IMG/VR virus record: IMGVR_UViG_2579778842_000004
Length of the DNA stretch: 16,811 nt
Direction: 5' to 3' (one strand)
Source: a virus
Lineage: Duplodnaviria; Heunggongvirae; Uroviricota; Caudoviricetes
Each line of letters starts with the position of its first letter. Position 1 is the stretch's first letter. Below, piece by piece: positions 2,237 to 16,811 of the stretch. A program made the position numbers and the translations under genes. The notes under the pieces were generated by a model that made no database searches, was not told the DNA's origin, and saw nothing but the letters and a program-made list of their open reading frames with translations.

Positions 2237-2281
2237 GCATATTGTGCGCTTTGTTGCGTCGTTATGATAGCTCATGATAAC

Positions 2282-3162: not shown

Positions 3163-3198
3163 TTCTGCCTCTCAGATTATATAGATAAGCAAAAAGGT

Positions 3199-3319
3199 GT
3201 TGGTTCAGTTGGTTCAGTTGGTTCAATTTGTAAAGATCGTTGTTTTTATTGTGTTTTTTCTGAAATATTGAACCAACATCAACTCATTTTGAACCAACAC
3301 AGCCCAGCTCTGAACCAAC
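3199..3319. repeat. Iteron cluster A: 3 tandem GTTGGTTCA (3199-3225) plus 3 inverted TGAACCAAC at 3269, 3290, 3311 (21-bp phasing)
   Basis: Read directly. The whole block is an imperfect reverse complement of cluster B (9351-9461), including the shared spacer atttgtaaaga. Confidence 0.65.
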
Positions 3320-3373
3320 AACACAGCGATAGCTTTGTGATTGGCCCGTTATTTTCTGGCTGATATTTGAGCG

Positions 3374-3404
3374 TATAACAGTGTTATACAGTGGTATACT
3401 GTAT
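3374..3404. promoter_or_regulatory. Two adjacent palindromes upstream of the RHH gene (candidate operators)
   Basis: TATAACA-g-TGTTATA (3374-3388) and ATACAGT-ggtat-ACTGTAT (3386-3404), overlapping a TATACT -10-like hexamer about 12 nt before the ATG. Confidence 0.4.
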
Positions 3405-3421
3405 GGATATTACTCACTGAT

Positions 3422-3877
3422 ATGGTCTTTGCAATGAGCAAATCTAATCTGGTCGCGTTCCGCATCCCATCTGAATTGCAGGATGAGTTTAATCGGTCTG
3501 TTCTCGCTTCTGGAGGGGATAAAACCTCCTGGCTTGTTGATGCGATTCGCATGAAGCTGGGACAGCCGGAAAAGTCTATTGATTCACGAATGCTTGGGCT
3601 GGTGGAGCGCATGGAAAAAGCTGCTGCGTCGCTTATTGCCGGAAAGCCGAACATCCCACCAAAGCCATATAACGAAACGGCAGTTATAAAGATCATTGCC
3701 GATACCATCCGACAGGGATTTGATAATGGGCGTGTGATAGCTGAACGGATCAATGAAGCAGGCTATCAAACAAAAGCTGGTAAAGCGTGGGATAAAGATA
3801 TTTACAGCGCGTGGAAGCGTCAGGGAAGCAATGCTGAAAAGTTAAAAGCGGTGATTGATTGTAAGGTCAGCGTATAA
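3422..3877 (+). CDS. Ribbon-helix-helix (Arc/MetJ/CopG-like) DNA-binding protein with C-terminal extension
   Basis: N-terminus SNLVAFRIPSELQDEFNRSVLASGGDKTSWLVDAIRMKL fits the beta-strand/helix/helix RHH pattern. No clear SD; alternative start at ATG 3434. Confidence 0.6.
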   Translation: MVFAMSKSNLVAFRIPSELQDEFNRSVLASGGDKTSWLVDAIRMKLGQPEKSIDSRMLGLVERMEKAAASLIAGKPNIPPKPYNETAVIKIIADTIRQGFDNGRVIAERINEAGYQTKAGKAWDKDIYSAWKRQGSNAEKLKAVIDCKVSV

Positions 3878-3956
3878 ACATGAGTGCCCATTGGAAAGCT
3901 GCTTGGGCCAATACCTTTATACACCAGCAGGTGGTGACGATAGGTGAGGATCAGGA

Positions 3957-4178
3957 ATGAAAGGCAGAACGCCACACATTGAACATCAAGCCAACCACTT
4001 CTCGGATGTTCGCAATGAGATGATTGCCATTCGCGGTGATATGCACGGCTTGGAGCGTCGAATTATTGATAAGATTGATGAAAATAGAGATAAGGCCAGT
4101 GAAAATCAAAAGTGGATCATCGGCCTGTTGATTTTATCAATGCTTATCCCGCTACTTATCGCATTGGTCACAAAATGA
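3957..4178 (+). CDS. Small tail-anchored membrane protein (coiled-coil N-terminus, single C-terminal TM)
   Basis: 73 aa; C-terminal WIIGLLILSMLIPLLIALVTK is one hydrophobic helix. Topology resembles XhlA-like or holin-like small proteins, but no family confirmed. Confidence 0.5.
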   Translation: MKGRTPHIEHQANHFSDVRNEMIAIRGDMHGLERRIIDKIDENRDKASENQKWIIGLLILSMLIPLLIALVTK

Positions 4179-4699
4179 ATATCCAATGTGTATGCTGTCG
4201 ATGCTACGCGCACGTACTTGTCGCAAAATATCAGACAAAAGCCAGATTCAGAACGTCGTGATAACCACCAGCACAACAGAGAGGTCATGTAACGCGATTT
4301 ATCACACCAGATACATGTGATTGGTGTACCCGCATAAAACATCGTCATAGCGCGTCCTGTGCGCATATACGCCGATAATCAACACATCACCACCACTCTG
4401 TCTCATGTAGAGAACACTTTTATGGTATCCCCCGCCATCGTGCGCGTACTAGTCGGACGCAGTTGCAAAACTTTTTGCAACTGATACCCCTCGCGCGCGT
4501 ACTTGTCTCGAAATTGGTGTTTTGCTGTGGCAGTGATATCAGAAAAATCTTCCTGTTTCACATAAAGCGGATATGCGCGTACTGTAACGACCCCATCAAC
4601 GGGGGCGGATTTGAAATCCCGACCCAAGCTATGTACCAAATGCCATGTCTTGGATATATGATGATTGCCATTCTAAACAACGCTAAAGGGAGGGTTGGT

Positions 4700-5314
4700 G
4701 TGAGCAGAAAAGATACTAAAGAATTGCTAACTATCTGCATGGTGTACTTTTCAATTTATTTTTGTGCATACATGATAGTCCCAGATGAGTTTGAACATGG
4801 CAGTATTATTTATTCCATAACATTCTATTTTTTAGAGCTAACACCAATTTTGGCTATCCTTTTGGCAATACATATTTATTTTTCCTTAAAAAAAGAATCG
4901 ACTAATTGGGAGAAGGTATGGAGAGACAGAGGATTTCTAACATCACCTAAAGATGATGCATATGAGAGTGATTTTTCAGACTTTATAACAAACTACTACT
5001 CCAGCGAACGATTCAAAAATAGACTGTCTGATGTTTGGGAAACAGCAATGTATTCTATAGGGATTATATTATTGATACTTACTGGTATTGCTCAATATGT
5101 TTTTAACATTGACTTATCATTAAATCCTGAAAATTTAATATCGCCATTGATTTTTGGTGAGATATTGATCTTCTCATTCGGAATTTTCTTGAGTGTTGTT
5201 CTCTGCTCATTATGCAAGCTACTGACTAACAGGTATCCGGGTGAAGCAAGGAGAGCAAGAAAGGCAAATCCATATTATCTTTTATTTCCTAATGGAGACA
5301 GCAGAGATATCTAA
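4700..5314 (+). CDS. AT-rich integral membrane protein, about 4 TM helices, unknown function
   Basis: GTG at 4700 preceded by AAAGGGAGGG (5-nt spacer). Composition drops sharply in GC at about 4690. Four hydrophobic segments (LLTICMVYFSIYFCAYMIV, IIYSITFYFLELTPILAILLAIHIYF, AMYSIGIILLILTGIAQYVF, LISPLIFGEILIFSFGIFLSVVLCSLC). The track's longer start (4463) would include repeat-rich DNA. Confidence 0.6.
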   Translation: MSRKDTKELLTICMVYFSIYFCAYMIVPDEFEHGSIIYSITFYFLELTPILAILLAIHIYFSLKKESTNWEKVWRDRGFLTSPKDDAYESDFSDFITNYYSSERFKNRLSDVWETAMYSIGIILLILTGIAQYVFNIDLSLNPENLISPLIFGEILIFSFGIFLSVVLCSLCKLLTNRYPGEARRARKANPYYLLFPNGDSRDI

Positions 5315-5332
5315 GCCATCCATGGCCATCTG

Positions 5333-7348
5333 TTATTGAGCTTCCTTTTGCGATGCTTGTGCTGCTGTGGTCAGTGATTGTGTGACCGTACTGATCGCTC
5401 TGTCATATGCTGTGCTACCTTTTGGCGTATTTGCCAGACGTAACAAGGCATTTCGTATAACAGGGCTTTCGTATGCCTTCGCTGCTCCGCCTACGGCACC
5501 AGCAGCAGGAACAACAAACGCAGCCGTTTTTAGCATCCCCGCTAATACTGCTGCGTTTATGATGCCACCACCAACTAACAATCCATAAAGCTGCTGACCA
5601 TTTAAGTTTTGAACGTTCGCTTTTGCCGCGTGTCTTGTATCGTTGAGGTATTTAATAACGCCGTCCAGTTCCTTTCCATGTACGCCTTTAAAGAAAGTTG
5701 CTGATTGCTTCCTGTTCCGGTGTAACGCATTAATAAACTTCTCAACACTGATATTTCCAGACGGATCAGTCGCCTTATCTACAGCATTCTGAACTATGGC
5801 TGCTCGTGCGTTTTGCCTACCATTGTCATCCAGAAGCCTGTAAAGCTGAGAACGTTCTGATGGGCTTTGGCTAAAAACGAGTTTTGTTACATCCTCAGGC
5901 GTGGCCTTGCCGCTGGCTATTGCCTTTTGAACGCGCGTTCTTCCCATCATGTCATTGAATTTAGACCATGAGCGATCAACCCTTGCCATATTAATGGCTT
6001 CGTCTGCTCCAAGATTTTTGGCTACGGCTTTTTTCATATCCGCCGTATATGCCTTGTAGATAATATCGCTGGCTTTCTGGAGCGTATCTTTATCAACAGT
6101 GTCAGATGACGCCATAAATCGCTTTCGAAGATCGGTTCTGTTTTCCCTCGCCAGACGCAGGTCATTTGGTCCGCTGGTGATATCGTCTTTAAATTGCTGC
6201 AAGACTTTTACCGCGGCTCTATCCTGAGATTTGCCCGGGCGGCTTAACACGGCAATCTGATTGTCGATAGCTTTTACCGTGTTTGAGAGATCGACAGGGG
6301 TATCCCCCATAGCGTCAATTATGCGGTTATATCGCTTTCCTGCTGCCTCAATGAATTTTTGTTGCCCTTTAGTCGCAGATTCATAAAGCTGTTTATCAGA
6401 AATGCCACCCAGACCATCGCTAAATGTTCTGACTAAATTTTCTCGTGCTTGTTGTTGATTCAGCCGATTCTTACCGGTTCCAAAAAAAGGAACTCTTTCG
6501 CCTAATGTCTGAGCCTGACTCTGCATAAAGGTTTTATCTTTCAGCATGTCACTGGTCATTAACGGTAGGTTTCTTTCCGATGCAAAATCAACAGCGGCTT
6601 TCGCTTCCGGTGCCATATCACCGCGAACGGCCCTCGAAACGGCACTCACTGTATTCTCCAGACCCTTACCAATGCCGCCAATGCCAGCAGAGATTACCGT
6701 TTGTAACGGATCAATATCTTCTCCACCAGCAAGGCTGGTGGCTCCCTGTAGTGCTAAATCTGTAGCTGCTGATTTCCCTATGGCCCCCAGCACCGTTCCG
6801 GCCCTGCCCGCTGGTGTAAACGCCAGCGCATTAGCCAGAAACGATGCCACGTCTTGCGGCGATAAACCCGGCTTGTTCAGAGCATAATCACCGGATGGTA
6901 GGGAAACGATAGTGTTACCCTTCTCATCCTGCCTTAATTTCGCTCCCATGCTCTGAAGAATCTTTTCCTGAGATGCGTCAGAGCCGAAAAGTTGAGACCA
7001 TCGAGCTTTTAGAGCATCCATGCTGAGTGAGGTTAACTCTGGGGCAAGGTCGACATTTTGCAGTCTCTCCATCTCTGGAGTCATTCGGCTTTCGCCTGTT
7101 ATAGCATCGCGCATCGCAGCCCCAAGGCTGGCTCCCTGTTCTGCTGAACGCTCAAGCCCCTCTCTTTGCTGAGTAGCTAACTTTGCATACCCTGACGCAA
7201 GAGAGTTGTCTGCTGGCGATTGCTGAACACCTTGTTGTGTTGGTGCTGACTGACCAGCAAAATACTCATCAATGGCGGTGCCAATATCTTCGGTGCTCGT
7301 ACCATCAGGGAAGGTAAATGTCTTACCGTTTGCAGTTACTTTCATCAT
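5333..7348 (-). CDS. Large (671 aa) Ala/Gln/Gly-rich, largely helical-looking protein with C-terminal hydrophobic segment; function unknown
   Basis: Start overlaps the upstream stop (ATGA at 7348-7345). C-terminal [40 protein letters not shown] is membrane-like. No enzymatic motif recognised. Confidence 0.8.
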
Positions 7349-8736
7349 TCCACCGTAAATTGAATGCCTGATTTTGACGTGTAGCTACCTCCTGCTGATT
7401 GCTGAGTAGCTGGCTGTTGCCTTGATGATTTCTTCCCGCCATTACCGACATTAACGTTATATTGCTGGTTGTAATTGTCGGTATATTGCTGAATGTCGCG
7501 CATTGATTGTTGTAGTGCTTCAGGGCTTGAGAAATCAGGCTTTGGCATACCTTGAAAATACCTATTGGCCTCTGCTTCGGTGTTGATGCCAGATGCCCCC
7601 ATATCTCGGGCTGCCGCAATCCCCTGATTTTGCATTTTGCCCAGGATTCGCTGTGCAGCGTTGTATAGCCTCCTCTCCTCAGCACCAGATGCCCGGCTAC
7701 GAATATCTGCACCAAGAGCAAAAGAACCTGAAGAACCAGTAATACCTGTCATGAAGCCAATATCGTCAATTGATGCGCCAGAAATTGCCTCAAGATCTTT
7801 CTTCATTTCGTAATTCTGCGCATTAGCTGCCGACGTGGCCGGAGCAGCAATAGAGCCAGCTGGAACGCGAACTATGTTCCCCTCATTGTCTATACCTTCG
7901 TAGAACGCGTTAGCACCAGCACCATGAAGTTTCCCGCCTACGGTTACAGTTCTTCCGTCTGCTAGTTGAACTGTGCGCTCATTATTCCCAACCGCCCCTT
8001 TCATTGATGTTCTCTGCATCGCTAAATCCTGACCGCGCATCGTGATGTTCTGTCCTCGTGCTGTTAGCGCCTCGCCAGCCTGATTGCTGCGGATTGTCTC
8101 TGCCAACTTGTCACGCTCAATATCCCGACCTTCCATTTGATCTTTGATATCGAAGTACTTCTCATGGCCGAGAGAAAACAGTGCCAGATTACCTGCGAAG
8201 TGCTGGAAGCCCTGCGGGTCATTAACCTGCATTTCAGCAATAGTTTCTGGAGGGATACCTAAACGACGCATCTCCTTTTCGTTATCCATCATGAACCTGC
8301 CAAATGCGCCCGGACCAAGCGACGAAGCTACCTGTGCTTTAAGCGCCAGATTGCCAAAATCATCCCGCTGGGCGTCATCGACATACCCCATGCCTTTACG
8401 GACTTCCTCAAACTCTTCTGGGAATGCTGTAATAAGATTACGCATCTTCTCCCTGTCGCCGGACGCATAAGCATCTGCATAACCTTTCTGGAATGCCGCT
8501 TTACGCTCCTGCTGTTGCTGCTGCTTATAAATATCAGCAACTCCAGCCAGACCACGAAGACCTGTCAGAGCAACGTTATTTGCACCTGATCGAGCCAGTT
8601 CATTGTTTTCGCGGATCAGACCAAGCGTTGCGTTAATGTCGCTTGCCTTTGGCGCATTCTCATTTTGCGTACCGATGCCAGCCAGAAAACCACCAGAATT
8701 AATACCCTGTTGCCACGTAGCCATTGATTTACCCAC
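7345..8736 (-). CDS. Large (about 460 aa) low-complexity Gly/Ala/Gln/Asn-rich protein; function unknown
   Basis: Long ORF, translationally coupled to the 671-aa gene. Track start is GTG 8736; ATG at 8724 ([12 protein letters not shown]...) is an alternative. Confidence 0.78.
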
Positions 8737-8902
8737 GTCCAGTTAAAGTGTAAGTCAGCGCCTTATCCATTAATCCCCGAGCAATTTCGTGGATCGTTGG
8801 CGCAACTCCTACCTCTGATTTTTTACGCTGCTCCTCCTGAATTTTCTTTATCGCTTCCATTTGTTTCTCACTTATCAATACTGGCTTTACTGAAATAGCC
8901 AT
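8729..8902 (-). CDS. Possible small Lys/Glu-rich ORF (57 aa) heading the large-protein operon
   Basis: ATG at 8902 with AAGGGGG 4 nt upstream (cagttctAAGGGGGcgttATG); stop at 8729-8731, 4 nt before ATG 8724. Not in the ORF track, presumably because it is short. Confidence 0.3.
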
Positions 8903-8997
8903 AACGCCCCCTTAGAACTGTATAAAACAACAGTTATTATAATTTCATAAAACGCAACATTCATCATTGTGATTGCAAAATATGAAACAAATAGCAC

Positions 8998-9030
8998 AAA
9001 AAAATGCCACCGCTCATTAGCTGGTGGCAT
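8998..9030 (-). terminator. Rho-independent terminator closing the primase operon
   Basis: On the minus strand: stem AUGCCACC / GGUGGCAU (9004-9011 / 9023-9030) followed by U7 (complement of A-run 8998-9004). Confidence 0.5.
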
Positions 9031-9350
9031 CGTTCTGTATGTCAGGTTTTGACAGGTTTTTTATGGACTCTAAAAACTATATTTATGGTGTCGCATTACT
9101 CTTCACGGCAGGCGCTTTCCAGTTCTGCCCTTGCTTCTGGCTCCATTGGTAATTTGATTCGAAATCAGCTATGCGGATGGTTTGCTGAACAGGCATAACA
9201 ACTTCTCAGAGGCTGTTTTTTTGAACTACGAAAATTTCGTAGTGCTCACTTTCAAAAACGTCACGCCCTTGTACACAGGATTTTACGAAAGTCTCGTAAA
9301 GCACTCTCTGATGCCAGCCAGATGTTGTGCTCATCAATTCAGTCACGTTG

Positions 9351-9461
9351 TGTTGGTTCAAAATGCCGTGTTGTTGGTTCAGTGTTGGTTCAATAAAAAG
9401 AATAAAATCCTTATAAAACAATACTCTTTACAAATTGAACCAACTGAACCAACTGAACCAA
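9351..9461. repeat. Iteron cluster B: 3 GTTGGTTCA (9351, 9372, 9383) plus 3 tandem TGAACCAAC (9435-9461)
   Basis: Read directly; mirror image of cluster A, immediately downstream of the primase stop (9488). Confidence 0.65.
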
Positions 9462-9487
9462 CACCTTTTCTACGCACATGAAGAAGC

Positions 9488-12250
9488 TCATTCTTCAGAT
9501 GAGTTATAATCTCCTGGCTGGTAATTGAGTACATAAACGTTTATTTGTCGTCCCTGAATACGTGGTGATTTTCTTTGGTATCCACGACCGCTGTTTGGTG
9601 GGGTTAGCATCCCGGCTTTTTTCAACACTTCAGCAAACTGTTTTGCGTTGAAACCACATGCGATCTCCTTTTCAAATGTGGCCGGGAATGTGTAGAAAAT
9701 CATTGGGCTTTCGTCATGTTCTCCACGCTGACGGTATCCGGCTAAATCTTTGATGGGCAAATCTGCCGGGCTGTATGGAAATGGTGCAAAACGGCTAAGC
9801 CCATAGGCATTAAGAAATGCCTCCGTTTGTTCAATAATCTGCTGATGCTCTTTGTTACCTGTGCCGAACTCGCGCAACCATGCGTTATAGCTGTGCTGTA
9901 TCGCATCACGGCATGTCTGAGCATCCCAGCCTGTTACAACCTCGCCTAACAACAATGCGGCCTCCAGAATGGCAAATCGCGCGGCTACACGGTGAACCTG
10001 CTCACCATAATCGGATGGGATCAGGCTTCTCCATCTGCTTTCGCAATCACGAACAGTTTTAATAGCCTGTTGCTGGTGGTCTGCCAGCCATTTAATCCAC
10101 TCACGCCCGGCTGCGCCATGGTGATGCTGGTAAGCGTCTTTCAGTGCGTCTGCGTGCTGTTTTCCGTTCTGGTAATCGTGAAAGCGTACTGCTTTACTCA
10201 ACGGAATATTCAGCAGTCGCACCAGTTGCCCGGCTTTGGTTTTTCGCCCGGAAGTAGCGATAAATGTTTCTAAATCCATTTCTCCGGTGCTGATTGCCAC
10301 TGTGCGCCAGCGTTTTAGATCCCGGTTTCCACCATCTTTAGCGCCTTGCAGTTTCCCTACACCGTTAAATAACGCATAGGCAGACTGTGAAACACTGACA
10401 GGATCAGCGCCCTGACCAACTTCATCAAGCGGCATTAGTCCGTCATTGTGGGCGGCAGCTTCATTTGCCAGCCCCAGCGCGGTTCCGTACCACGTCAGCC
10501 GCAGTAAATCAGGGTTGCCGTATAAGCTGCTCGCCACGTTTGCCGTGGTGGTCTTACCTGCGCTCGACTGCTCATAGAAATGAATGCCGAACCCGTCAGC
10601 GCCCACCAGCCCAATCAATGGCGCTGCCAGTGCTGCGCCGATCCCGGTCATCATTGAATAGTTACCAAAGGCCAGACGCGCCACGTTATCACGCCAGCTT
10701 TTCGCGCTCCCTGAGACGGTATATCCGGCTGCGGCTGAGCTTCTCCCGCTGAACAGCACAGGATTTTCAGGTGTTCCGATGATTTCCCCATCAGGCATGA
10801 TGTACGCTCCGCATTGCCAGCCAGTGGCATGAGCAACACGCCACAATTCACGAGAGCCACTGCGTTGTAGCCAGTCTGCCAGTATTGCTCTGAGGCTGCT
10901 TTTGGTCGTGACATTTACCCCACCAGCTTTCAGGGTGCGCCAGCCTTCACGCTCGCCAATATCAGCCAGCGGGATAGCCGCTGTTGTCGGTATGCCTGCA
11001 CCGAATGCCAGCCATGAGATAATAAGATACTGATCTTTGTCGTCGCGTCCCGTGCCGATAACCTCCAACGGGGAACATAACCAGCTTTCAGCGTTGACGA
11101 TCTCCCCGCTTTCCTTGTCCACCTTCGGCGTTACCCAGAAAACGCCATCTTTGCGGCTCTCAATGTGGGGTTTTAGTGGATCTTTCTCTGGATGGTCAGT
11201 TTTACCGCCCTCAATGGCTTGCAATCGCGGTTTCACGGCTTCCCCTTGAATCTGGTACATCGAATCGTTAAACGCAGCCGTAGCGACTTCCAGCCCGTTT
11301 TGCTGGCGGTAGTCGTCCCAGTCGGCTTTGTAGTCTGTCGGCGGCAGTGCCACCCAGCCAGCCACGGATAAGGCGGCTTTCTCTGCGGCATCTTTGCCCG
11401 TGTTCGCCTGTTCGTCCTGCTGGTGGTCGTTATCTGCGGCAATGATAATCTGCGTGGCTGGATATATCCGGCGCATCACTTCGGCAACGGGTAGCAGGTT
11501 GCCCGCATCAATGGCGCACACTGTCAGCGCGTCAGGGCGCATCAGGTGGACTGATAAAGCGGTTGCCAGCCCCTCGGCAATTAAAACGCTCTGCGGCGAT
11601 TCTGGCGCGTTTACGGCGTGATATGCCCCGCGCTTTGCTGAACCTGTCAGGAGTCGCTTCTCTCCCTGCGGTGTAATGGTTTGCGCTGCTGCCACTGCGC
11701 CGGATTCGTCCACCAGCTCCAGCAATAACGAACCATCCGGCATAACCGGATAGTTAAACCCGGTCAGCCCTTTTGATTGCAGGTAATCAGATTCGCCCTG
11801 TGTGGCACTCTGGCGCATTCCGGCATACAGATGGGCAAACGTAGCCCTTCGCTGCTCTGCGTCCTCTGCTGCCTGTTTCTGGCGCTCCTGCTCACGCTGC
11901 TGGCGGTCAGCTTCCAGTTGCTCCCTTCTATGGCTCGCTGCCACCGGGTCGGATTGCGCTGCCCGGTAATCAATACCCAGAACATCAGCGACAAGAAGCG
12001 CCGCCTCTGTTGTGTCGCAGTTATTTACGCGTTTAATTAAATCCAGCCCATCACCAGCGCCGCACTGATTACAGATGAAGCTACCGCGCCCGTTGTCATC
12101 GAACCGGAATCGATCTTTGCCCCCACATGCAGGGCAGGGAGCATGACGGCGCGGAGAGTCAGGGACATTTATGTTCAGGCAGCCCAGCACATGAGGCCAG
12201 TTGTTTTCAGACGCACTGATAACCTGACGGATAAGATCAATGTTTCGCAT
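9488..12250 (-). CDS. Primase-helicase, P4 alpha-like (N-terminal zinc ribbon, TOPRIM, C-terminal P-loop NTPase)
   Basis: 920 aa. Zinc ribbon CPACGG...FICNQCG; TOPRIM-like VLIAEGLATALS ... IIIAADNDHQ; Walker-A-like FYEQSSAGKTTTANV. GGGGG 5 nt upstream of ATG. Confidence 0.9.
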   Translation of the reverse strand: MRNIDLIRQVISASENNWPHVLGCLNINVPDSPRRHAPCPACGGKDRFRFDDNGRGSFICNQCGAGDGLDLIKRVNNCDTTEAALLVADVLGIDYRAAQSDPVAASHRREQLEADRQQREQERQKQAAEDAEQRRATFAHLYAGMRQSATQGESDYLQSKGLTGFNYPVMPDGSLLLELVDESGAVAAAQTITPQGEKRLLTGSAKRGAYHAVNAPESPQSVLIAEGLATALSVHLMRPDALTVCAIDAGNLLPVAEVMRRIYPATQIIIAADNDHQQDEQANTGKDAAEKAALSVAGWVALPPTDYKADWDDYRQQNGLEVATAAFNDSMYQIQGEAVKPRLQAIEGGKTDHPEKDPLKPHIESRKDGVFWVTPKVDKESGEIVNAESWLCSPLEVIGTGRDDKDQYLIISWLAFGAGIPTTAAIPLADIGEREGWRTLKAGGVNVTTKSSLRAILADWLQRSGSRELWRVAHATGWQCGAYIMPDGEIIGTPENPVLFSGRSSAAAGYTVSGSAKSWRDNVARLAFGNYSMMTGIGAALAAPLIGLVGADGFGIHFYEQSSAGKTTTANVASSLYGNPDLLRLTWYGTALGLANEAAAHNDGLMPLDEVGQGADPVSVSQSAYALFNGVGKLQGAKDGGNRDLKRWRTVAISTGEMDLETFIATSGRKTKAGQLVRLLNIPLSKAVRFHDYQNGKQHADALKDAYQHHHGAAGREWIKWLADHQQQAIKTVRDCESRWRSLIPSDYGEQVHRVAARFAILEAALLLGEVVTGWDAQTCRDAIQHSYNAWLREFGTGNKEHQQIIEQTEAFLNAYGLSRFAPFPYSPADLPIKDLAGYRQRGEHDESPMIFYTFPATFEKEIACGFNAKQFAEVLKKAGMLTPPNSGRGYQRKSPRIQGRQINVYVLNYQPGDYNSSEE

Positions 12251-12262
12251 TCTGGCCCCCGT

Positions 12263-12865
12263 TTAGTGCGTCACTGGTGCTTCTGGGATGCCGTTTTCGT
12301 TTAGTTCGGCAATAAAGCTGTTGTGAAGATCGGCAAGCACTTCTCGCCCAAACGAAGTGAGTGTTCCCTGTTCGACATCGAACATGTTGCTGTAAAAAAT
12401 GATGGCATTCTTTGTTCCGACATCAACACCATATTTCTCGATCATTGCGCCCTCAATGTTGTTTGCCATAGCGAGGCGCTCTGCTACTGGATACAGCGGC
12501 ATGGCGACGATGCCATTGGAATAAACAGAAACCACGGAATGATTGCCACTGTCATCAATAATGCTGACGGTGCCGTTTTCCTTTCTCATTTCATTGATGA
12601 ATGCTGTTGCTATCAGCCAGCGCCACATAATCACGTGATGCTGTGATGTGTAATCGAAATATCCCTGGTTGCCGCCACTGGCAATAGCGAGATGTATAAA
12701 CATGCCTTCATCTGGTTTATCGTCATAATCCCCGGCATCCAGACGATTTACGGCATCAATATATGAGACGGTCTCAACGCGTTCTGTCATGCCATCGTTG
12801 CTGCGGTACATGATGTTTACGCCGTCAGGCGTTGCTTCTGCATGGAAAGTTAAGAAATTATTCAT
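12263..12865 (-). CDS. Hypothetical protein (200 aa)
   Basis: Start moved to ATG 12865 (MNNFLTFHAEATPDG...), which overlaps the stop of the upstream 73-aa gene. The track start 12970 would overlap that gene by 35 codons. Confidence 0.6.
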   Translation of the reverse strand: MNNFLTFHAEATPDGVNIMYRSNDGMTERVETVSYIDAVNRLDAGDYDDKPDEGMFIHLAIASGGNQGYFDYTSQHHVIMWRWLIATAFINEMRKENGTVSIIDDSGNHSVVSVYSNGIVAMPLYPVAERLAMANNIEGAMIEKYGVDVGTKNAIIFYSNMFDVEQGTLTSFGREVLADLHNSFIAELNENGIPEAPVTH

Positions 12866-13079
12866 GTTTCGCCTCGCCTGAATGATTCTGTAACTCATAT
12901 TTGCCCAACAATTCGTCTGCTTCCTGAATAGCTTCTGGTACGCCATTGAGCAGTGACATAACCGCGCCAATCATTAACTTGTCTCTGTTGCTGGGGCTGG
13001 CCCCTTCAAGCCAGAACCCTAAAACAGTCTGAACCTGTTCGATACGACATTGCGCTTCAATGAGCTGGATGTTGGTCAT
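12858..13079 (-). CDS. Small acidic hypothetical protein (73 aa)
   Basis: Member of a chain of stop/start-overlapping small ORFs on the minus strand. Confidence 0.5.
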   Translation of the reverse strand: MTNIQLIEAQCRIEQVQTVLGFWLEGASPSNRDKLMIGAVMSLLNGVPEAIQEADELLGKYELQNHSGEAKHE

Positions 13080-13339
13080 TTCGCACTCTCCGCATCGATT
13101 AAACTGATATCTATCAGAGAGGTAACTTTTTGTAGCCAGCTAGTGATTACTGTCGCCTGTTCCCCTCCCACCGATGGAAGAATCTCATTCATCACATGAA
13201 CCAGACCTGTGCGCGCTCTGGTAAGCCGTTCAGTCGTGCGATCTGCAAGAGTGAATGTGTCTGGATATGGCTCTTCACGGCTCAGCAATGATTCAATTTC
13301 CAGCTCACACGGATGACGATAAATTAAGTTGATATTCAT
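13076..13339 (-). CDS. Small acidic hypothetical protein (87 aa)
   Basis: ATGA overlap with neighbours on both sides. Confidence 0.5.
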   Translation of the reverse strand: MNINLIYRHPCELEIESLLSREEPYPDTFTLADRTTERLTRARTGLVHVMNEILPSVGGEQATVITSWLQKVTSLIDISLIDAESAK

Positions 13340-13530
13340 TTTTCACCCCCAAGAATTACCAGCTCTGCACGGGCATCGTTAACCAAAGATGAGCACGCTT
13401 TAATCGCATCCACGACATCAGTAGCGTCCATTTCTTCAGCCGAAAGACTGACAGCAACCAGGACAGCCGCTGCTTGCTCGATTAATTGAAGTGCGGACGT
13501 AAGGCGAGGGGTATTAATTGAGTTATTCAT
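13336..13530 (-). CDS. Small acidic hypothetical protein (64 aa)
   Basis: ATGA-type overlap with neighbours. Confidence 0.5.
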   Translation of the reverse strand: MNNSINTPRLTSALQLIEQAAAVLVAVSLSAEEMDATDVVDAIKACSSLVNDARAELVILGGEK

Positions 13531-13741
13531 TGGTTTCCCCCGTTTTTACTGGCATTTCGCCACCTTCCAGCAGGAAATGAACGTCACGAACGGCGAGATC
13601 CAATATCGCGAGTAACGCCTTCAGTCTTTCGTCTCGTGAGGGAGAGTTGCTCACCAGAATGTCGTTAATCACTTCTGTCAGTGTGATGATCTGGCTTGTG
13701 CGTTCGAGGGGATCCATATGCACATCGTAGGTTTTAATCAT
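13523..13741 (-). CDS. Small acidic hypothetical protein (72 aa)
   Basis: ATG 13741 with GGAGGTG 6 nt upstream; overlaps the stop of the 13734-13928 ORF (CATGATTAA). In frame with the long 13523-14551 open frame. Confidence 0.5.
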   Translation of the reverse strand: MIKTYDVHMDPLERTSQIITLTEVINDILVSNSPSRDERLKALLAILDLAVRDVHFLLEGGEMPVKTGETNE

Positions 13742-14551
13742 GTGCCACCTCCATGCGGATACGACCAGCAAAAAAGCAGACGTGATCGCGCACCAGAGAA
13801 CGGCGAGCATCGCGTTCAGACTCGGCAGCAATATGATGAATTTTGGCGGTAATTGTCGGGCAATCGCGGCGAACTGCGGCGATAATCCAGATAAATTGCG
13901 GTTTTTGGGTAGGGGTAGTAGCCAGCATGTGGCAGCCTCCTTGATTGATGGTTTATAGCCACCGCCGGAGGTCCTAAGCTCGCTGGCGGTGGACTGTACA
14001 GGGTTAGGACTACTGGCAATCAAGGAAACCAGCCTGACCGAAGTCAGCCCCATACAGCCCACCATTGATAAGGTGTGCGTGTGCGCCGATACAAAAAAAG
14101 ACGCTGGCGCGTCATGTATCGCCTCGATTGCCTGCGGGGTCCTAATCCCGGCACCCGTTTTATGAGGTGCCTTATAACCATAAACCGTGTTGCCGCATAA
14201 CGGCAAGCTCTTTTTTATGGACTCCGAAAACTCACTATTGGAAGCACCAGATGCACAATACATCGCGCTCATTTCGTTAACGTCACGCACGTGGACGAAT
14301 GTTTTTGTGGAGTCACTACACGAGCAGAACAGGTGATCTACGACCAGAAATTCTCTGGCGCAGCCGCTGACCTTCTCAACGCTAACACCATCGACCGTAA
14401 TTTCTGACATAGTTAAGGCATCCGCTCCTACCACCAGCAAATGATAAACTTTGCTTGTATCTGCTGTATTAATGCCTGACTTTGCTGTCATATTGCTGGA
14501 TTTTGGCGACATACCAGCCAGTGAAAATGTCTTCTTCTGGACGGTTAGCAT
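13523..14551 (-). CDS. Long uninterrupted open frame (342 codons); N-terminal about 150 codons look coding, middle section coincides with RNA structures; possibly composite or frameshifted
   Basis: ATG 14551 has GGAGG 7 nt upstream and overlaps the upstream stop (ATGCTAA). No in-frame stop until 13523; a T7 run sits at 14099-14093. Alternative annotation is the two small ORFs listed separately. Confidence 0.3.
13734..13928 (-). CDS. Small basic hypothetical protein (64 aa)
   Basis: ATG 13928 preceded by textbook SD AAGGAGG (13942-13936, 7-nt spacer). The SD lies in the 3' arm of a predicted RNA stem. Confidence 0.45.
   Translation of the reverse strand: MLATTPTQKPQFIWIIAAVRRDCPTITAKIHHIAAESERDARRSLVRDHVCFFAGRIRMEVAHD
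13936..14113 (-). promoter_or_regulatory. Structured RNA leader/attenuator-like region (minus-strand transcript)
   Basis: 5' to 3' on the minus strand: hairpin GACGC-GCCA-GCGUC then U7 (14113-14093); CUGAC-UUCG-GUCAG tetraloop hairpin (14047-14034); 9-bp long-range stem CCUUGAUUG (14025-14017) pairing CAAUCAAGG (13947-13939), which contains the SD of the 13928 ORF and encloses an 8-bp hairpin CCACCGCC/GGCGGUGG (13992-13959). Confidence 0.4.
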
Positions 14552-14727
14552 TTGTTAACCTCCGCGAACTCCTTCATGAAACGCGCCAGCGGTTGTACGC
14601 ATGGCGATTGATACCCGTCGCGATAGAACGTCACTCGGTTGTGAGACACGCTTTCGACAGTAACGAGTGCTCCGTGGGCATCTTTGTAGCGTTTTTGAGG
14701 TTGTGGTGTTCCTGTAGGCTTAAACAT
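14545..14727 (-). CDS. Small hypothetical protein (60 aa)
   Basis: ATG 14727 with GGAGG 6 nt upstream, 4 nt after the AntA-like stop (MFKPTGTPQPQKRYKDAHGALVTVESV...). The track start 14814 would overlap the upstream gene. Confidence 0.5.
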   Translation of the reverse strand: MFKPTGTPQPQKRYKDAHGALVTVESVSHNRVTFYRDGYQSPCVQPLARFMKEFAEVNKC

Positions 14728-15553
14728 GGACCGCCTCCAGACGCTTAGCGAGCCAGCGTTGCGACAGGCGGGTGAGTTCTCCTTTGCGCTGCTCATATTC
14801 CATGCCCATATCAATTAACGTGATATTGGTGCTTTCGAGATATGAGAGGTGCTCAAGTTGTTCTGCGTTCATATGGTCGCGAGGTTCGCCAGAATAGCCA
14901 TTTATCCGCGCCCACTGCTTAGCAGTTAGCCCACCAAGAACGATACGAGAAATCATATTGCTCTCGTTTGTGTAGTGGTGTTGCTGCGTCGTTTTCCCCT
15001 GCTCGGCACGGGCCATATTCAGCGCATCGCACATTGGCTTAAAGTTGTTTGCGGCACTGATACGGGCTTTTAGCTGGCGACGATAGCGGGCGGCGATTTC
15101 AGGAACGCTACGCTGTAATTCTTCCTCGCACTGGATGAAATAACGGCGGATAGCGCGCCCCTGATCATTGCGTTCGATCATTGCCAGTTCTTTCGCCATT
15201 CCGACACTTAACAGATAGTCTTTGCCGGGTCTGCCAGAGTGCTTAATCTTGCTGTAAGCCGTGCCATTCGGGCTTTTCCCCAAATTTGGGGAAATTGTTT
15301 TATGGACTGAGTAATCGTGCCCAATGGTGAAGTCATATTCAGAGATGCGATCAGTGATCCATGTAGAGAAGTCTTTTCCCACGCCCAACGCTTTGTGTAA
15401 CGCTTTTGCGCTAACAATATTGGTTTCACGCCCACCGATATGACCAGGAATAACCGGGACAATTGCGGCAAATTCATTACCGTTAATTGTGCCCAGAGAG
15501 GCGTTCAGATGAGGGGCGGCCTCAGAAATTAATCTGCTTTTTTCGATGTTCAT
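14720..15553 (-). CDS. Phage antirepressor-like protein (AntA-type N-terminal domain)
   Basis: 277 aa; N-terminal segment ...NIVSAKALHKALGVGKDFSTWITDRISEYDFTIGHDY... matches the AntA/Bro-type signature as I recall it; GGAGA 7 nt upstream. Confidence 0.7.
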   Translation of the reverse strand: MNIEKSRLISEAAPHLNASLGTINGNEFAAIVPVIPGHIGGRETNIVSAKALHKALGVGKDFSTWITDRISEYDFTIGHDYSVHKTISPNLGKSPNGTAYSKIKHSGRPGKDYLLSVGMAKELAMIERNDQGRAIRRYFIQCEEELQRSVPEIAARYRRQLKARISAANNFKPMCDALNMARAEQGKTTQQHHYTNESNMISRIVLGGLTAKQWARINGYSGEPRDHMNAEQLEHLSYLESTNITLIDMGMEYEQRKGELTRLSQRWLAKRLEAVHV

Positions 15554-15565
15554 TTTCAGTCTCCG

Positions 15566-15997
15566 TTAGGCGGCGTTAAACGCGTTCGGGTAGAGTTTCA
15601 GAATGTCGGCAATTTCCTGCTGAGAAAGTCCGTTGTGATCATTTATGTTCGCAAGATGGTTAACATGAGTGATCACTTTCAGAACATCACCACGGCAGGA
15701 GAAACGGTAGCGAAGGTGTGTTCCGATACCATCAGGATTCTTTTCGTCGATACGCTCCAGAGTGATTCCAAGCTGGCGTTCTAACTCTGTTGCATAGTTA
15801 CGACCAGAAGACAGACGGCAGTAGCGAAGAATGTCATTTTCTGTCCATCCCTCTATACCAGTACGCAGCATATAGACTCTGGCACGATGCTTTTTCGGTG
15901 TGCGCTTTGGTTCTTGAAGGGATTTTGTAAGGGGCGTAACATCAGATACGCGAATATCTGAATTAGCCGCCTGTAATGGGCGGTTTTTCTTTTCCAT
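15566..15997 (-). CDS. Hypothetical protein (143 aa), translationally coupled to the AlpA-like gene
   Basis: ATG overlaps the AlpA-like stop (TGATG); AAGGTGG 5 nt upstream. Confidence 0.6.
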   Translation of the reverse strand: MEKKNRPLQAANSDIRVSDVTPLTKSLQEPKRTPKKHRARVYMLRTGIEGWTENDILRYCRLSSGRNYATELERQLGITLERIDEKNPDGIGTHLRYRFSCRGDVLKVITHVNHLANINDHNGLSQQEIADILKLYPNAFNAA

Positions 15998-16200
15998 CAG
16001 GCCACCTTCCCGCGGCGTTCTGCCAGCCAGTTGTGAATCTCAACCGCATCAAACGCAGTTATTTTTTCTCCCAGCTTTACCGGACGTGGTAGTGAACCGT
16101 TTCTTACTTTACGGTCGATGGTGGATACACTAACGCCCAGCAATTCAGCCAGGCGGAAGCGTCTGATATAGCCTTTTGTAGGAATAGTGTCGGTGTTCAT
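15997..16200 (-). CDS. alpA: AlpA-family / excisionase-type helix-turn-helix regulator
   Basis: 67 aa; RFRLAELLGVSVSTIDRKVRNGSLPRPVKLGEKITAFDAVEIHNWL fits the AlpA/Xis HTH pattern; first gene of the long minus-strand operon. Confidence 0.75.
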   Translation of the reverse strand: MNTDTIPTKGYIRRFRLAELLGVSVSTIDRKVRNGSLPRPVKLGEKITAFDAVEIHNWLAERRGKVA

Positions 16201-16204
16201 GCTT

Positions 16205-16259
16205 CCCGTAACCTCTTAGCGATAGTTGTTGCTTCGTTACGGGAGGAAGTATCTGTACA
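16205..16259 (-). promoter_or_regulatory. Leader of the AlpA-like gene: 8-bp inverted repeat around the SD plus one TGTACA motif
   Basis: CCCGTAAC (16205-16212) and GTTACGGG (16236-16243) separated by 23 nt; AAGAGG lies at the loop/stem junction; tgtaca at 16254-16259. Confidence 0.35.
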
Positions 16260-16270
16260 TATATGAACAA

Positions 16271-16298
16271 TAAAAAGGCACAGTAATGATACTGTGCC
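16271..16298 (-). terminator. Rho-independent terminator downstream of gene X
   Basis: Minus strand: stem GGCACAGU / ACUGUGCC (16298-16291 / 16284-16277), 6-nt loop, then U5 (complement of A-run 16272-16276); 17 nt after the stop at 16315. Confidence 0.55.
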
Positions 16299-16314
16299 TG
16301 AATAGTTAGCTACT

Positions 16315-16811
16315 CTACCCCTTACCGTTGGCGGCAGCACGTAAGTGTCTCAAAATCACATCTTCATTTGTGATTGCTAACGGTGGAATTTCGTCTTTAT
16401 GAGCCACTATGCAATCCCGCCACTTCTCAGGGCTTATTTCTTTCTTTTTGCCACGGCATTCATCAGGATACTTTGACAAAAGATATATTGCTGATTTGAA
16501 AAGTTTTTCCCTGTTTTCAGCATGTCTCTCGGCATTATGGTTGCTATTTTTTATTTCAGGTATTAGTTCCTGTTCTACCGCCATTTCGTATCGTTTTTTG
16601 CTCTTAGCTGCGTCAAAACTTCCATTAACCTTTGCGTCGTGAAGATATTCTAAATCAGCCTTTGTTATATAAATGTTTTTATCTGACAGGCTACTCAGGT
16701 GAATCTGGGAACTTTGCATTTTGAATTTATATAGATCACAATCAAATGTTGCTTCAAGTCGCACATATGGCTCTCCACATTCTTGTGAATGATAATGTCG
16801 TGTTGTACTAC
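16315..16811 (-). CDS. Hypothetical AT-rich protein ('gene X'), 3' part; 5' end runs off the window end
   Basis: Frame is open from the window end to the stop at 16315. The last 54 codons (LSKYPDECRGKKKEISPEKWRDCIVAHKDEIPPLAITNEDVILRHLRAAANGKG) are unique; the rest duplicates 1-332 in the same frame. Confidence 0.6.
   Translation of the reverse strand, partial: STTRHYHSQECGEPYVRLEATFDCDLYKFKMQSSQIHLSSLSDKNIYITKADLEYLHDAKVNGSFDAAKSKKRYEMAVEQELIPEIKNSNHNAERHAENREKLFKSAIYLLSKYPDECRGKKKEISPEKWRDCIVAHKDEIPPLAITNEDVILRHLRAAANGKG
16480..16811. repeat. Terminal direct repeat, right copy (matches 1-332)
   Basis: See left copy; offset between copies is 16479 bp. Confidence 0.95.

What the first reader, a model, noticed from the sequence alone, without database searches (positions are those of the whole stretch)
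12858..13928. Chain of five overlapping small, mostly acidic ORFs upstream of the primase
Five ORFs of 64-87 aa are linked by stop/start overlaps in one operon between the regulators and the primase; four look acidic and the first (13734-13928) basic. In P4-like and other satellites this position holds helper-derepression (epsilon-like) and other small early proteins. Small acidic early proteins are also a common form of anti-restriction or anti-defence factors.
Basis: inference. Interest (0 to 1): 0.5.

Follow-up and report, generated by a model that had tools for sequence, protein, structure and literature searches.

The report
RNA-gated small genes of a satellite
The five small overlapping genes are real genes of a phage satellite closely related to the published E. 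coli island EcCIMP1: the first is an Icd/Kil-type cell-division inhibitor whose ribosome-binding site is covered by an antisense RNA, and the other four are satellite-only helical proteins of unknown role, so this is a known kind of operon, not a new system.

Summary
Five minus-strand ORFs of 64, 72, 64, 87 and 73 aa are linked by 8, 8, 4 and 4-nt stop/start overlaps. The first is basic (pI 9.5) and the other four are mildly acidic (pI 4.2-4.85, net -5 to -6). They are under purifying selection (pooled pN/pS 0.27).

directly upstream lie Rfam isrK and C4 antisense RNA genes.
- **ORF1:** it is the Icd/Kil-like protein. Its Shine-Dalgarno sequence sits in the C4 target b2. C4 loop/target pairing covaries across nine alleles, including P4 and a P1-like phage.
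- **The operon:** it has the phage P4 layout (CI RNA-kil-epsilon-orf151-alpha; P1 c4-icd-ant) and continues through a sixth overlapping ORF (200 aa) into the primase.
- **The element:** an excised, circular EcCIMP1-like PICI carrying ORF4 and ORF5 proteins identical to EcCIMP1's.
- **ORFs 2-5:** no similarity to P4 epsilon, no Pfam, PDB or PADLOC family match, and none in 50,697 phage genomes. ORF5 is predicted as a three-helix bundle and ORF4 as a helical hairpin, with no significant structural match. The set varies between related satellites.

Their biochemical function stays unknown. Helper/host-binding accessory proteins is my best guess. Nothing found supports DNA-mimic anti-restriction, though only ORF4 and ORF5 were modelled.

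The parts
14094..14170 (-). isrK-like RNA element (counterpart of P4 seqA). It carries the upstream C4 target copies a1 (14139-14145, TTAGGAC) and b1 (14122-14130, CAATCGAGG). It ends in a terminator-like hairpin followed by T7 (14100-14113).
   Evidence: Rfam RF01394, 63 bits against a gathering score of 50. Terminator scan. a1/b1 change together with the C4 loops between alleles.
13982..14069 (-). C4-type antisense RNA (P1 c4 / P4 CI family) with loops a' (GUCCUAA) and b' (CCUUGAUUG).
   Evidence: Rfam RF01695, 80.2 bits against a gathering score of 45, full length. Loops covary with their targets in 9 alleles.
13935..13977 (-). Leader of ORF1 holding C4 targets a2 (13971-13977, TTAGGAC) and b2 (13939-13947, CAATCAAGG). 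b2 overlaps the Shine-Dalgarno sequence AAGGAGG (13935-13941).
   Evidence: Read directly from the sequence. 16 intermolecular pairs, 97.2% of cells paired, 12 pairs with compensatory changes, 0 of 500 shuffles as good.
13734..13928 (-). ORF1, 64 aa, basic. Icd/Kil-like putative cell-division inhibitor and the gated first cistron.
   Evidence: NCBIfam NF033153 3.7e-20. Smith-Waterman z=15 to the P4 Kil region. BLASTP E=3e-6 to a P1-like Icd.
13523..13741 (-). ORF2, 72 aa, pI 4.7. Satellite-specific small protein, also in frame as the C-terminus of the 342-aa read-through ORF.
   Evidence: 20 clusters among 5.8e9 proteins. Homologue at 46% identity in L009. pN/pS 0.27.
13336..13530 (-). ORF3, 64 aa, pI 4.2. 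Satellite-specific small protein.
   Evidence: Homologues at about 50% identity in L007 and L010. pN/pS 0.22. Lost through a deletion in L006.
13076..13339 (-). ORF4, 87 aa, pI 4.85. Predicted flexible N-terminus followed by a long helical hairpin. Invariant motif ER..RAR.GLVHVM.E.
   Evidence: AF2 pLDDT 82.5. Family present in 7 of 8 related loci. Same protein accession as in EcCIMP1.
12858..13079 (-). ORF5, 73 aa, pI 4.7. Predicted three-helix bundle. The most widespread of the four families.
   Evidence: 57 representatives at E<=1e-3 among 1.84e9 proteins. Alignment A2. AF2 pLDDT 92. pN/pS 0.09. Same protein accession as in EcCIMP1.
12263..12865 (-). ORF6, 200 aa, pI 4.5, net -17. Sixth overlapping cistron (8-nt overlap with ORF5), conserved MWRWL motif.
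   Evidence: phrog_1515 1.3e-47, function unknown. Alignment A3. Family present in 7 of 8 loci.
9488..12250 (-). Primase-helicase (zinc ribbon, Toprim, DUF927), the last large gene of the operon.
   Evidence: Pfam.
13523..14551 (-). 342-aa read-through ORF, annotated 'ash family protein' in RefSeq. Its start overlaps the DUF4222 stop. It runs across isrK, C4 and icd (out of frame with icd) and ends as ORF2. Possible counterpart of P4 eta.
   Evidence: Pfam Phage_ASH matches residues 124-219, which is 13895-14182, exactly the RNA genes and leader. Its openness across icd is not beyond chance (0.18 and 0.08).
14545..16200 (-). Upstream part of the same transcription unit: AlpA (15997-16200), 143-aa protein (15566-15997), AntA-type antirepressor (14720-15553), DUF4222 (14545-14727).
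   Evidence: Pfam. The same order is found in all related loci.

Best explanation
The chain is the translated front end of the early/replication operon of an EcCIMP1-like Gram-negative PICI. That operon is built like phage P4's left operon and phage P1's immI operon. A C4-type antisense RNA is encoded just upstream on the same strand. It pairs through two loops with sites a2 and b2 in the leader of ORF1, and b2 covers ORF1's Shine-Dalgarno sequence. While C4 is in excess, ORF1 is therefore not translated. By analogy with P1 and P4, transcription then stops early, keeping the downstream genes and the primase silent. When the satellite is induced, ribosomes enter ORF1. In P4 induction works by read-through from the upstream AlpA-dependent promoter and translation across the RNA region. 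ORF1 is an Icd/Kil-type protein, and P1 Icd blocks FtsZ. Ribosomes are then handed from cistron to cistron through the 4- and 8-nt stop/start overlaps: ORF2, ORF3, ORF4, ORF5, ORF6. The primase follows after a 12-nt gap. ORFs 2-5 are genuine, satellite-specific, mildly acidic proteins; the two modelled (ORF4, ORF5) are helical. I infer that they are dispensable accessory factors that bind helper-phage or host proteins. That would make them the functional slot P4 fills with epsilon, rather than enzymes or core replication proteins. Shown by tool results: the ORFs, their selection, the RNAs, the covarying pairing, the Icd homology, the synteny with P4 and EcCIMP1, and the mosaic gene content. 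Inferred: termination/polarity, translational coupling, and the binding-factor role.
For: RNA genes: isrK and C4 lie upstream of ORF1, with the same pair and order in P4 and in EcCIMP1, L002, L003, L006 and L009. Pairing: C4 loop/target pairing keeps 97.2% of cells paired over 9 alleles, with compensatory changes in 12 of 16 pairs, 0 of 500 shuffles as good, and shifted registers at 28-51%. b2 overlaps AAGGAGG 7 nt upstream of the ORF1 ATG. ORF1: Icd-like by NF033153, P4 Kil and P1-like Icd. P1 Icd binds FtsZ (PMC11897509). The P1 c4-icd-ant logic is summarised in PMC8198154, and P4 CI/seqA/eta/kil logic and C4/isrK hits in GN-PICIs in PMC10111431. Synteny: P4 has 8-nt overlaps kil->epsilon->orf151, as here. 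Element identity: EcCIMP1 (PMC11773190) carries the same ORF4 and ORF5 protein accessions. Coding evidence: pN/pS 0.09-0.39, family alignments, confident AF2 models. Accessory and mosaic character: ORF2/ORF3 are destroyed by a deletion in L006. L003 lacks ORF2 and ORF6, L007 lacks ORF4, and L029 lacks ORF5. At least 10 small-ORF families are shuffled in this interval. The same ORF4-6 sit next to two different primase C-terminal types, DUF927 and DUF5906. There is no homologue in 50,697 phage genomes.
Against: No experiment or homology ties ORFs 2-5 to any partner or activity. Small helical bundles are uninformative folds. The best Foldseek E-values are 0.9 (ORF5) and 0.64 (ORF4). ORF2 and ORF3 were not modelled. 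ORF4, ORF5 and ORF6 are present in most related satellites and always lie next to the primase, which fits a replication role equally well. In 14 of 14 IMG/VR loci and about 490 E. coli genomes the five-gene chain is kept intact as a block, so 'dispensable' rests on a few variants that may be decaying elements. Translational coupling and Rho-type polarity are taken from P1/P4 and were not tested here. The proposed promoter upstream of isrK (TTGCCG-18-TATGGT) fell below the scan threshold.
Confidence: 0.6

Rival explanations
1. ORFs 2-5, with or without ORF6, are accessory subunits of the satellite's replication machinery, for example origin recognition, helicase loading or primase regulation. 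They would be co-translated with the primase to fix stoichiometry.
For: They are in the same overlapping chain as the primase. The ORF5, ORF6 and ORF4 families are present in 8/8, 7/8 and 7/8 related loci and always lie just upstream of the primase. ORF5 overlaps the primase start directly in L003. ORF5 shows the strongest purifying selection (pN/pS 0.09).
Against: Identical ORF4-6 proteins accompany primases with different C-terminal helicase domains, DUF927 in the window and DUF5906 in L006. L029 has no ORF5, L003 has no ORF6, and P4 has none of them. Published work names only int, alpA and pri as essential for PICI induction and transfer (PMC10111431). No DNA-binding or ATPase motif was found.
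Confidence: 0.2
2. One reading: the acidic ORFs are anti-restriction or anti-defence proteins (DNA mimics or other inhibitors) expressed early to protect incoming satellite DNA.
For: They are small, acidic and early-expressed. The gene set is mosaic and fast-turning-over, as seen for counter-defence genes. They are restricted to mobile elements. ORF6 is markedly acidic (net -17 to -21).
Against: There are no hits to ArdA, Ocr, KlcA or any Pfam family, to PADLOC or to PDB sequences. Net charge of -5/-6 per ~70 aa is far from typical DNA mimics. The ORF4 and ORF5 models are a plain helical hairpin and a three-helix bundle without significant structural neighbours. The genes are gated behind an immunity RNA and downstream of a cell-division inhibitor, so they are induced with replication rather than being the first thing made on entry. 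No anti-defence HMM library was available, so the test is incomplete.
Confidence: 0.12
3. The small ORFs matter only as translated spacers. Continuous ribosome traffic from ORF1 to the primase prevents Rho-dependent termination, and the peptide products are irrelevant.
For: The stop/start overlaps run along the whole chain. P1 and P4 precedent holds that translation of the leader ORFs controls termination (PMC10111431, PMC8198154). Gene content is interchangeable between satellites.
Against: Amino-acid sequences are conserved: pN/pS is 0.09-0.39. The ORF5 family keeps L20, W23, L44 and G46 across 38 sequences at 33-50% identity. ORF4 keeps RAR.GLVHVM. AF2 gives confident folds. A pure spacer would not keep protein sequence.
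Confidence: 0.05

Closest known systems
Phage P4 left (alpha) operon: seqA - CI RNA - seqC/kil(eta) - epsilon - orf151 - orf106 - alpha
   Same: Same Rfam isrK and C4 hits in the same order and strand. The Icd/Kil-like ORF is the first cistron after the RNA. 8-nt stop/start overlaps lead into small early ORFs and then a primase-helicase. Loop/target covariation includes the P4 allele.
   Different: ORFs 2-5 and ORF6 are unrelated in sequence to epsilon, orf151 and orf106. The element has no sid, delta or psu. Instead it carries an AntA antirepressor, DUF4222, a P22-type Inj_translocase protein and PerC. The long eta-like ORF is out of frame with icd and in frame with ORF2.
EcCIMP1, the E. coli MP1 PICI mobilised by the P22-like phage Kapi1 (PMC11773190)
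   Same: Same gene order: AlpA - 143 aa - AntA - DUF4222 - ash/isrK/C4 - Icd - small ORFs - 200 aa - DUF927 primase - ejection-protein genes - PerC. ORF4 (WP_001024679.1), ORF5 (WP_000181940.1) and DUF4222 proteins are identical. Nucleotide identity over the chain is 94-98%.
   Different: Different integrase and attachment site: yicC/dinD intergenic here, tRNA-Thr near proA in MP1. A different C4 allele (MP1 shares the L002 allele). EcCIMP1 has two extra ORFs (113 and 123 aa) between ORF6 and the primase. The paper leaves the small ORFs as hypothetical proteins.
Phage P1/P7 immI operon: c4 antisense RNA - icd - ant1/2
   Same: A C4 RNA is made from the same transcript as its targets a2/b2, which cover the icd ribosome-binding site. 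icd is followed by overlapping downstream genes whose expression depends on icd translation (PMC8198154). The C4 of a P1-like phage aligns column for column and covaries. ORF1 aligns to Icd residues 1-53, which contain the reported FtsZ-targeting core 12-51 (PMC11897509).
   Different: The cargo is four small satellite proteins, a 200-aa protein and a primase, instead of the Ant antirepressor. The AntA-type antirepressor here lies upstream of the RNA gate. ORF1 is only 27% identical to the P1-like Icd.

Membership tests
C4/CI antisense-RNA-gated operon (P1 immI / P4 immunity type) | A C4-family RNA gene on the same strand, upstream of the regulated ORF | tested here: met
   RF01695, 80.2 bits (gathering score 45), model positions 1-87 of 87, at 13982-14069(-)
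C4/CI antisense-RNA-gated operon (P1 immI / P4 immunity type) | Two RNA loops (a', b') complementary to leader sites a2/b2, with b2 overlapping the ribosome-binding site of the first ORF | tested here: met
   7-bp and 9-bp complementarity. b2 13939-13947 overlaps SD 13935-13941. Covariation over 9 alleles: 12 of 16 pairs compensatory, 0 of 500 shuffles as good
C4/CI antisense-RNA-gated operon (P1 immI / P4 immunity type) | A second, upstream copy of the targets (a1/b1; P4 seqA) | tested here: met
   a1 TTAGGAC and b1 CAATCGAGG lie inside the isrK hit and change with the C4 loops in every allele
C4/CI antisense-RNA-gated operon (P1 immI / P4 immunity type) | C4 binding causes translational block and premature termination; downstream genes depend on translation of the first ORF | not testable with these tools
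   Only the stop/start overlaps and a terminator-like hairpin were seen. Needs reporter fusions or RNA-seq.
Icd/Kil cell-division inhibitors | Sequence membership in the Icd-like family | tested here: met
   NF033153, 71.7 bits (cut-off 25). P4 Kil Smith-Waterman z=15. P1-like Icd E=3e-6.
Icd/Kil cell-division inhibitors | Inhibits Z-ring formation by binding FtsZ | not testable with these tools
   Shown for P1 Icd only (PMC11897509)
P4 epsilon (helper derepression protein) | Sequence homology to P4 epsilon | tested here: not met
   Smith-Waterman with shuffles gives z between -1.0 and 0.4 for ORF1-6 against epsilon. No Pfam or NCBIfam hit.
P4 epsilon (helper derepression protein) | Position: small ORF overlapping the stop of kil/icd in the CI-gated operon | tested here: met
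   ORF2 overlaps the ORF1 stop by 8 nt, as epsilon overlaps the kil ORF by 8 nt in P4
P4 epsilon (helper derepression protein) | Binds and inactivates the helper prophage repressor | not testable with these tools
   Needs two-hybrid or derepression assays
DNA-mimic anti-restriction proteins (Ocr, ArdA, KlcA type) | Homology to a known anti-restriction family | tested here: not met
   No Pfam family reaches its cut-off for ORF2-6. No PDB sequence hits.
DNA-mimic anti-restriction proteins (Ocr, ArdA, KlcA type) | Very high negative charge density and a fold that displays it like B-DNA | tested here: inconclusive
   Net -5/-6 per 64-87 aa. ORF5 is a three-helix bundle and ORF4 a helical hairpin, with no significant match. 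ORF2 and ORF3 were not modelled.
Gram-negative PICI (EcCIMP1-like) | Unidirectional int - alpA - (Bro/Ant zone) - primase - late/accessory zone, about 10-20 kb, no full phage morphogenesis set | tested here: met
   Unit length 16,479 bp. The four-zone scheme is from PMC10111431.
Gram-negative PICI (EcCIMP1-like) | Helper-dependent excision, replication and transfer | not testable with these tools
   Shown for EcCIMP1 with Kapi1 (PMC11773190). Here only the excised attP-junction form of the sequence is seen.

The most novel reading that the evidence does not exclude
The interval between icd and the primase in this satellite family is a recombining array of at least ten families of small, mostly acidic, satellite-only proteins (helical where modelled). 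All are released together by one allele-specific antisense-RNA switch, and at least some are inhibitors aimed at helper-phage or host-defence proteins. A second point: the switch allele of this island (loops GUCCUAA and CCUUGAUUG and all four targets) is identical to that of Stx-type lambdoid phages such as GER2. A co-resident prophage and the satellite could therefore silence each other's gated operons through RNA cross-immunity.
Probability: 0.3. Interest if true: 0.55.

Novelty: new member of a known kind. Interest (0 to 1): 0.3.

Why it matters
The result turns an anonymous 'chain of small acidic ORFs' into a defined object: the cargo of a P4/P1-type antisense-RNA gate in a PICI family found in about 9-17% of complete E. 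coli genomes. A close relative of the island, EcCIMP1, has been shown experimentally to be mobilised by a P22-like helper.

- **Annotation problem:** RefSeq calls a 342-aa 'ash family protein' across two RNA genes. That call swallows ORF2 and leaves icd unannotated in this genome.
- **Function:** the four small proteins remain unknown. They are a tractable set of candidates (four genes, clean overlaps, natural deletion variants) for whoever studies how EcCIMP1-like islands manipulate their helper or add to superinfection immunity.
- **Limit:** nothing found here suggests a new category of system.

Tried and rejected
- **Tandem paralogues:** tested whether ORFs 2-5 are tandem paralogues of one helical-hairpin domain. 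Pairwise Smith-Waterman with shuffles gave only ORF2-ORF5 at p~0.02 uncorrected. hhalign of the ORF5 profile against ORF2, ORF3 and ORF4 gave probabilities below 3%. Rejected.
- **Homology to P4 epsilon/orf151/orf106:** none.
- **Library searches:** Pfam, PHROGs, NCBIfam, PADLOC and PDB sequence searches on ORFs 2-5 gave only two function-unknown PHROGs for ORF5 and sub-threshold noise: TY-Chap1 at 16.7 bits for ORF3 and CARF3 at E=0.005.
- **Phage genomes:** tblastn of ORF2-5 against 50,697 phage genomes found no match.
- **Fold searches:** ORF5 and ORF4 models against the PDB gave no hit with E<0.6.
- **Dual coding:** tested whether the 342-aa ORF running across icd in another frame is maintained by selection. 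Synonymous-codon randomisation leaves that frame open in 18% (window) and 8% (L009) of trials, so it is not significant.
- **Scans that led nowhere:** the genome-contig scan with ORF6 returned a single locus. The attP junction was not found in IMG/VR.
- **Own error, corrected:** I first assumed the window was colinear with the UMNK88 chromosome and read ORF 897-2240 as dinD. blastn showed the window is the circularised island and that ORF is the integrase.


Full report
**1. The observation**

All genes below are on the minus strand. The mechanical ORF list and the sequence show these ORFs:

| ORF | Coordinates | Length |
|---|---|---|
| ORF1 | 13734-13928 | 64 aa |
| ORF2 | 13523-13741 | 72 aa |
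| ORF3 | 13336-13530 | 64 aa |
| ORF4 | 13076-13339 | 87 aa |
| ORF5 | 12858-13079 | 73 aa |

- The stop/start overlaps are ATGATTAA, ATGAATAA, ATGA and ATGA. Each start has a purine-rich SD-like motif upstream.
- pI values are 9.5, 4.7, 4.2, 4.85 and 4.7, and net charges are +3, -6, -5, -5 and -6.
- ORF2 appears in the ORF list only as the tail of a 342-aa ORF (13523-14551).
A 200-aa acidic ORF6 (12263-12865) overlaps ORF5 by 8 nt. The primase (9488-12250) starts 12 nt after it.

**2.

- Rfam finds a full-length C4 antisense RNA at 13982-14069 (80 bits) and an isrK element at 14094-14170 (63 bits). Both are on the minus strand, directly upstream of ORF1.
- ORF1 matches the NCBIfam model 'host cell division inhibitor Icd-like protein' at 71.7 bits against a cut-off of 25.
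- ORF1 aligns with the C-terminal Kil part of P4's old 'cI orf137' (Smith-Waterman z=15).
- It aligns more weakly with the Icd of a P1-like phage: 27% identity, E=3e-6, over Icd residues 1-53. P1 Icd was recently shown to bind FtsZ through residues 12-51 (PMC11897509).

**3. The RNA gate**

- C4 loop b' (CCUUGAUUG) is complementary to CAATCAAGG at 13939-13947. That site overlaps the ORF1 Shine-Dalgarno sequence AAGGAGG.
- C4 loop a' (GUCCUAA) is complementary to TTAGGAC at 13971-13977.
- Copies of both targets lie inside the isrK element.
- I collected nine distinct alleles: the window, L002/EcCIMP1, L003, L006, L009, L017, L030, a P1-like phage and P4.
- I then counted the 16 proposed intermolecular pairs. 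97.2% of cells form standard pairs and 12 pairs show changes on both sides. No shuffle out of 500 reaches this, and registers shifted by 1-3 columns drop to 28-51%.
- This is the arrangement described for P1 (c4, a/b sites, icd, ant; PMC8198154) and P4 (CI, seqA/seqC, kil/eta; summarised in PMC10111431). PMC10111431 already noted that the C4 and isrK models hit several Gram-negative PICIs.
- The isrK 3' hairpin followed by T7 scores as a terminator.
- A plausible promoter (TTGCCG-18-TATGGT) would place +1 at the first isrK base. It fell below the scan threshold, so that step is my inference.

**4. The element**

- The chain region is 100% identical to E. coli UMNK88. blastn shows the window is the excised, circularised island, not the chromosome.
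- Window 1-2365 equals the integrase side and 2353-16811 the rest, joined at an attP core (ATTCTGAATCTG). The two window ends repeat each other (331 of 332 nt), which gives a 16,479-bp unit.
- The gene order runs: int, int-alpA RNA, 321 aa, AlpA, 143 aa, AntA, DUF4222, isrK/C4, Icd, ORF2-6, a DUF927 primase, 57 aa, a P22-type Inj_translocase protein, 671 aa, and on to PerC.
- This matches EcCIMP1, a PICI of E. coli MP1 shown to be excised and transferred with the P22-like phage Kapi1 (PMC11773190).
- EcCIMP1 carries the very same ORF4, ORF5 and DUF4222 protein accessions. That paper leaves the small genes as hypothetical proteins.

**5. Are ORFs 2-5 real genes?**

Yes.

- About 490 of 5,426 complete E. 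coli genomes carry the ORF2-5 block at 96.8-100% identity. All 14 full-length IMG/VR loci keep the chain with the same spacing.
- Over 14 haplotypes, pN/pS is 0.27 (ORF2), 0.22 (ORF3), 0.39 (ORF4) and 0.09 (ORF5). The only disruption is a nonsense codon in ORF5 in two loci that have also lost ORF6.
- Diverged homologues exist. The ORF5 family has 57 representatives among 1.84 billion proteins, with L20, W23, L44 and G46 nearly invariant.
- ORF4 homologues at ~55% identity keep the motif ER..RAR.GLVHVM.E. ORF3 homologues reach ~50% identity. An ORF2 homologue at 46% identity sits in L009.
- AlphaFold2 predicts ORF5 as a three-helix bundle (pLDDT 92). It predicts ORF4 as a flexible N-terminus plus a long helical hairpin (pLDDT 82.5).

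**6. What do they do?**

I could not tie them to any known activity.

- There is no Pfam, NCBIfam, PADLOC or PDB sequence hit above noise. Only function-unknown PHROGs hit ORF5 and ORF6.
- There is no tblastn match in 50,697 phage genomes and no significant structural neighbour.
- There is no similarity to P4 epsilon, orf151 or orf106. No paralogy among the ORFs themselves is detectable.
- Comparative context is the main clue. Every related satellite examined has the same frame: int, AlpA, ~144 aa, AntA/Bro, in most also DUF4222, then Ash/Icd, a chain of 3-9 overlapping small ORFs, and the primase.
- The content of the chain is mosaic. At least ten small families appear in different combinations, nearly all with pI 4.2-5.5.
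- L003 lacks ORF2 and ORF6, L007 lacks ORF4, and L029 lacks ORF5. L006 has a deletion that fuses ORF2 to ORF3 out of frame.
- Identical ORF4-6 accompany primases with different C-terminal domains.
- From this I infer accessory proteins acting by binding helper or host proteins, in the slot P4 uses for epsilon. I regard this as more likely than core replication factors (the main rival) or DNA-mimic anti-restriction proteins (no positive evidence).

**7. The 342-aa 'ash family protein'**

- RefSeq annotates 13523-14551 as one protein and does not annotate icd in UMNK88.
- Pfam Phage_ASH matches only residues 124-219. That stretch is the translation of isrK, C4 and the leader.
- The ORF starts on the DUF4222 stop (ATGCTAA) and keeps its frame in L002 despite a 39-nt length difference. 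It is open in L006, L009 and MP1 as well.
- In this lineage it is out of frame with icd and in frame with ORF2. In P4, L003, L004 and L007 the long ORF ends in the Icd/Kil domain.
- It may be the counterpart of P4 eta, whose translation from the upstream promoter overrides termination (PMC10111431).
- The openness of that frame across icd is not beyond chance: 0.18 and 0.08 by synonymous randomisation. I leave this open.

**8. Verdict**

- The structure is a new member of a known kind: the antisense-RNA-gated early operon of a P4/PICI-type satellite.
- Its first cistron is an Icd/Kil homologue. Its next four cistrons are uncharacterised satellite-specific proteins, helical in the two modelled.
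- Interest is modest, at 0.3.

Noticed in passing
window 1-332 and 16480-16811; attP junction about 2353-2365: The window is not a chromosomal stretch. It is the excised, circular form of the island. Window 1-2365 and 2353-16811 map to the two ends of the UMNK88 island, joined at the att core ATTCTGAATCTG. The window ends repeat each other (331 of 332 nt), giving a 16,479-bp unit. The exact junction was not found in IMG/VR.
   Followed up: yes
window 13523-14551 (-): RefSeq annotates a 342-aa 'ash family protein' that runs across the isrK and C4 RNA genes, covers icd in another frame and ends as ORF2. Pfam Phage_ASH matches only the part that translates the RNA genes. The frame is kept in L002, L006, L009 and MP1, but its openness across icd is not beyond chance (0.08-0.18). 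It could be an eta-like read-through ORF or an annotation artefact.
   Followed up: partly
window 13935-14170 (-) compared with L031 (phage GER2, MG710528) 1440-1790: Stx-type lambdoid phages carry an isrK-C4-leader module about 90% identical to the island's. The specificity loops and all four targets are identical (a' GUCCUAA, b' CCUUGAUUG). There it gates a Rha-type 'regulatory protein'. 62 phage records match at 90-95%. This suggests possible RNA cross-immunity between the satellite and such prophages.
   Followed up: partly
L006 5673-5760 compared with L028 (P1-like phage vB_EcoM-673R5): The C4 RNA of satellite L006 is nearly identical to that of a P1-like phage except for the b' loop. At least nine C4 alleles exist among the loci fetched, and they look assembled by swapping loops and targets.
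   Followed up: partly
window 5333-8736 (-): Downstream of the primase the island carries a 463-aa protein with the P22 injectosome translocase domain (Inj_translocase, 1e-83), overlapped by a 671-aa protein with no family. PADLOC finds nothing in either. EcCIMP1 has related 'DNA transfer' genes shared with its P22-like helper Kapi1.
   Followed up: partly
window 822-888 (-): An Rfam int-alpA RNA motif (60.6 bits) lies immediately after the integrase stop and before the 321-aa gene. It sits at the same place in L002, L003, L006, L007 and L009.
   Followed up: no
ORF4 homologues in RefSeq (for example P0003, L029 5358-5621): Some database copies of the ORF4 protein are named 'nicotinic acetylcholine receptor subunit beta', an obvious propagated mis-annotation.
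   Followed up: no
L006 6001-6201; L025 and L026 5001-5219: Natural knock-outs exist. A deletion of about 190 bp fuses ORF2 to ORF3 out of frame in L006. A Q52* nonsense codon interrupts ORF5 in two IMG/VR loci that have also lost ORF6.
   Followed up: partly
L004 and L007, upstream of the Icd-like ORF: Two related satellites have an Icd-like C-terminus on a long ORF but no Rfam C4 or isrK hit. They share a different conserved upstream stretch and may use another RNA or regulator.
   Followed up: no
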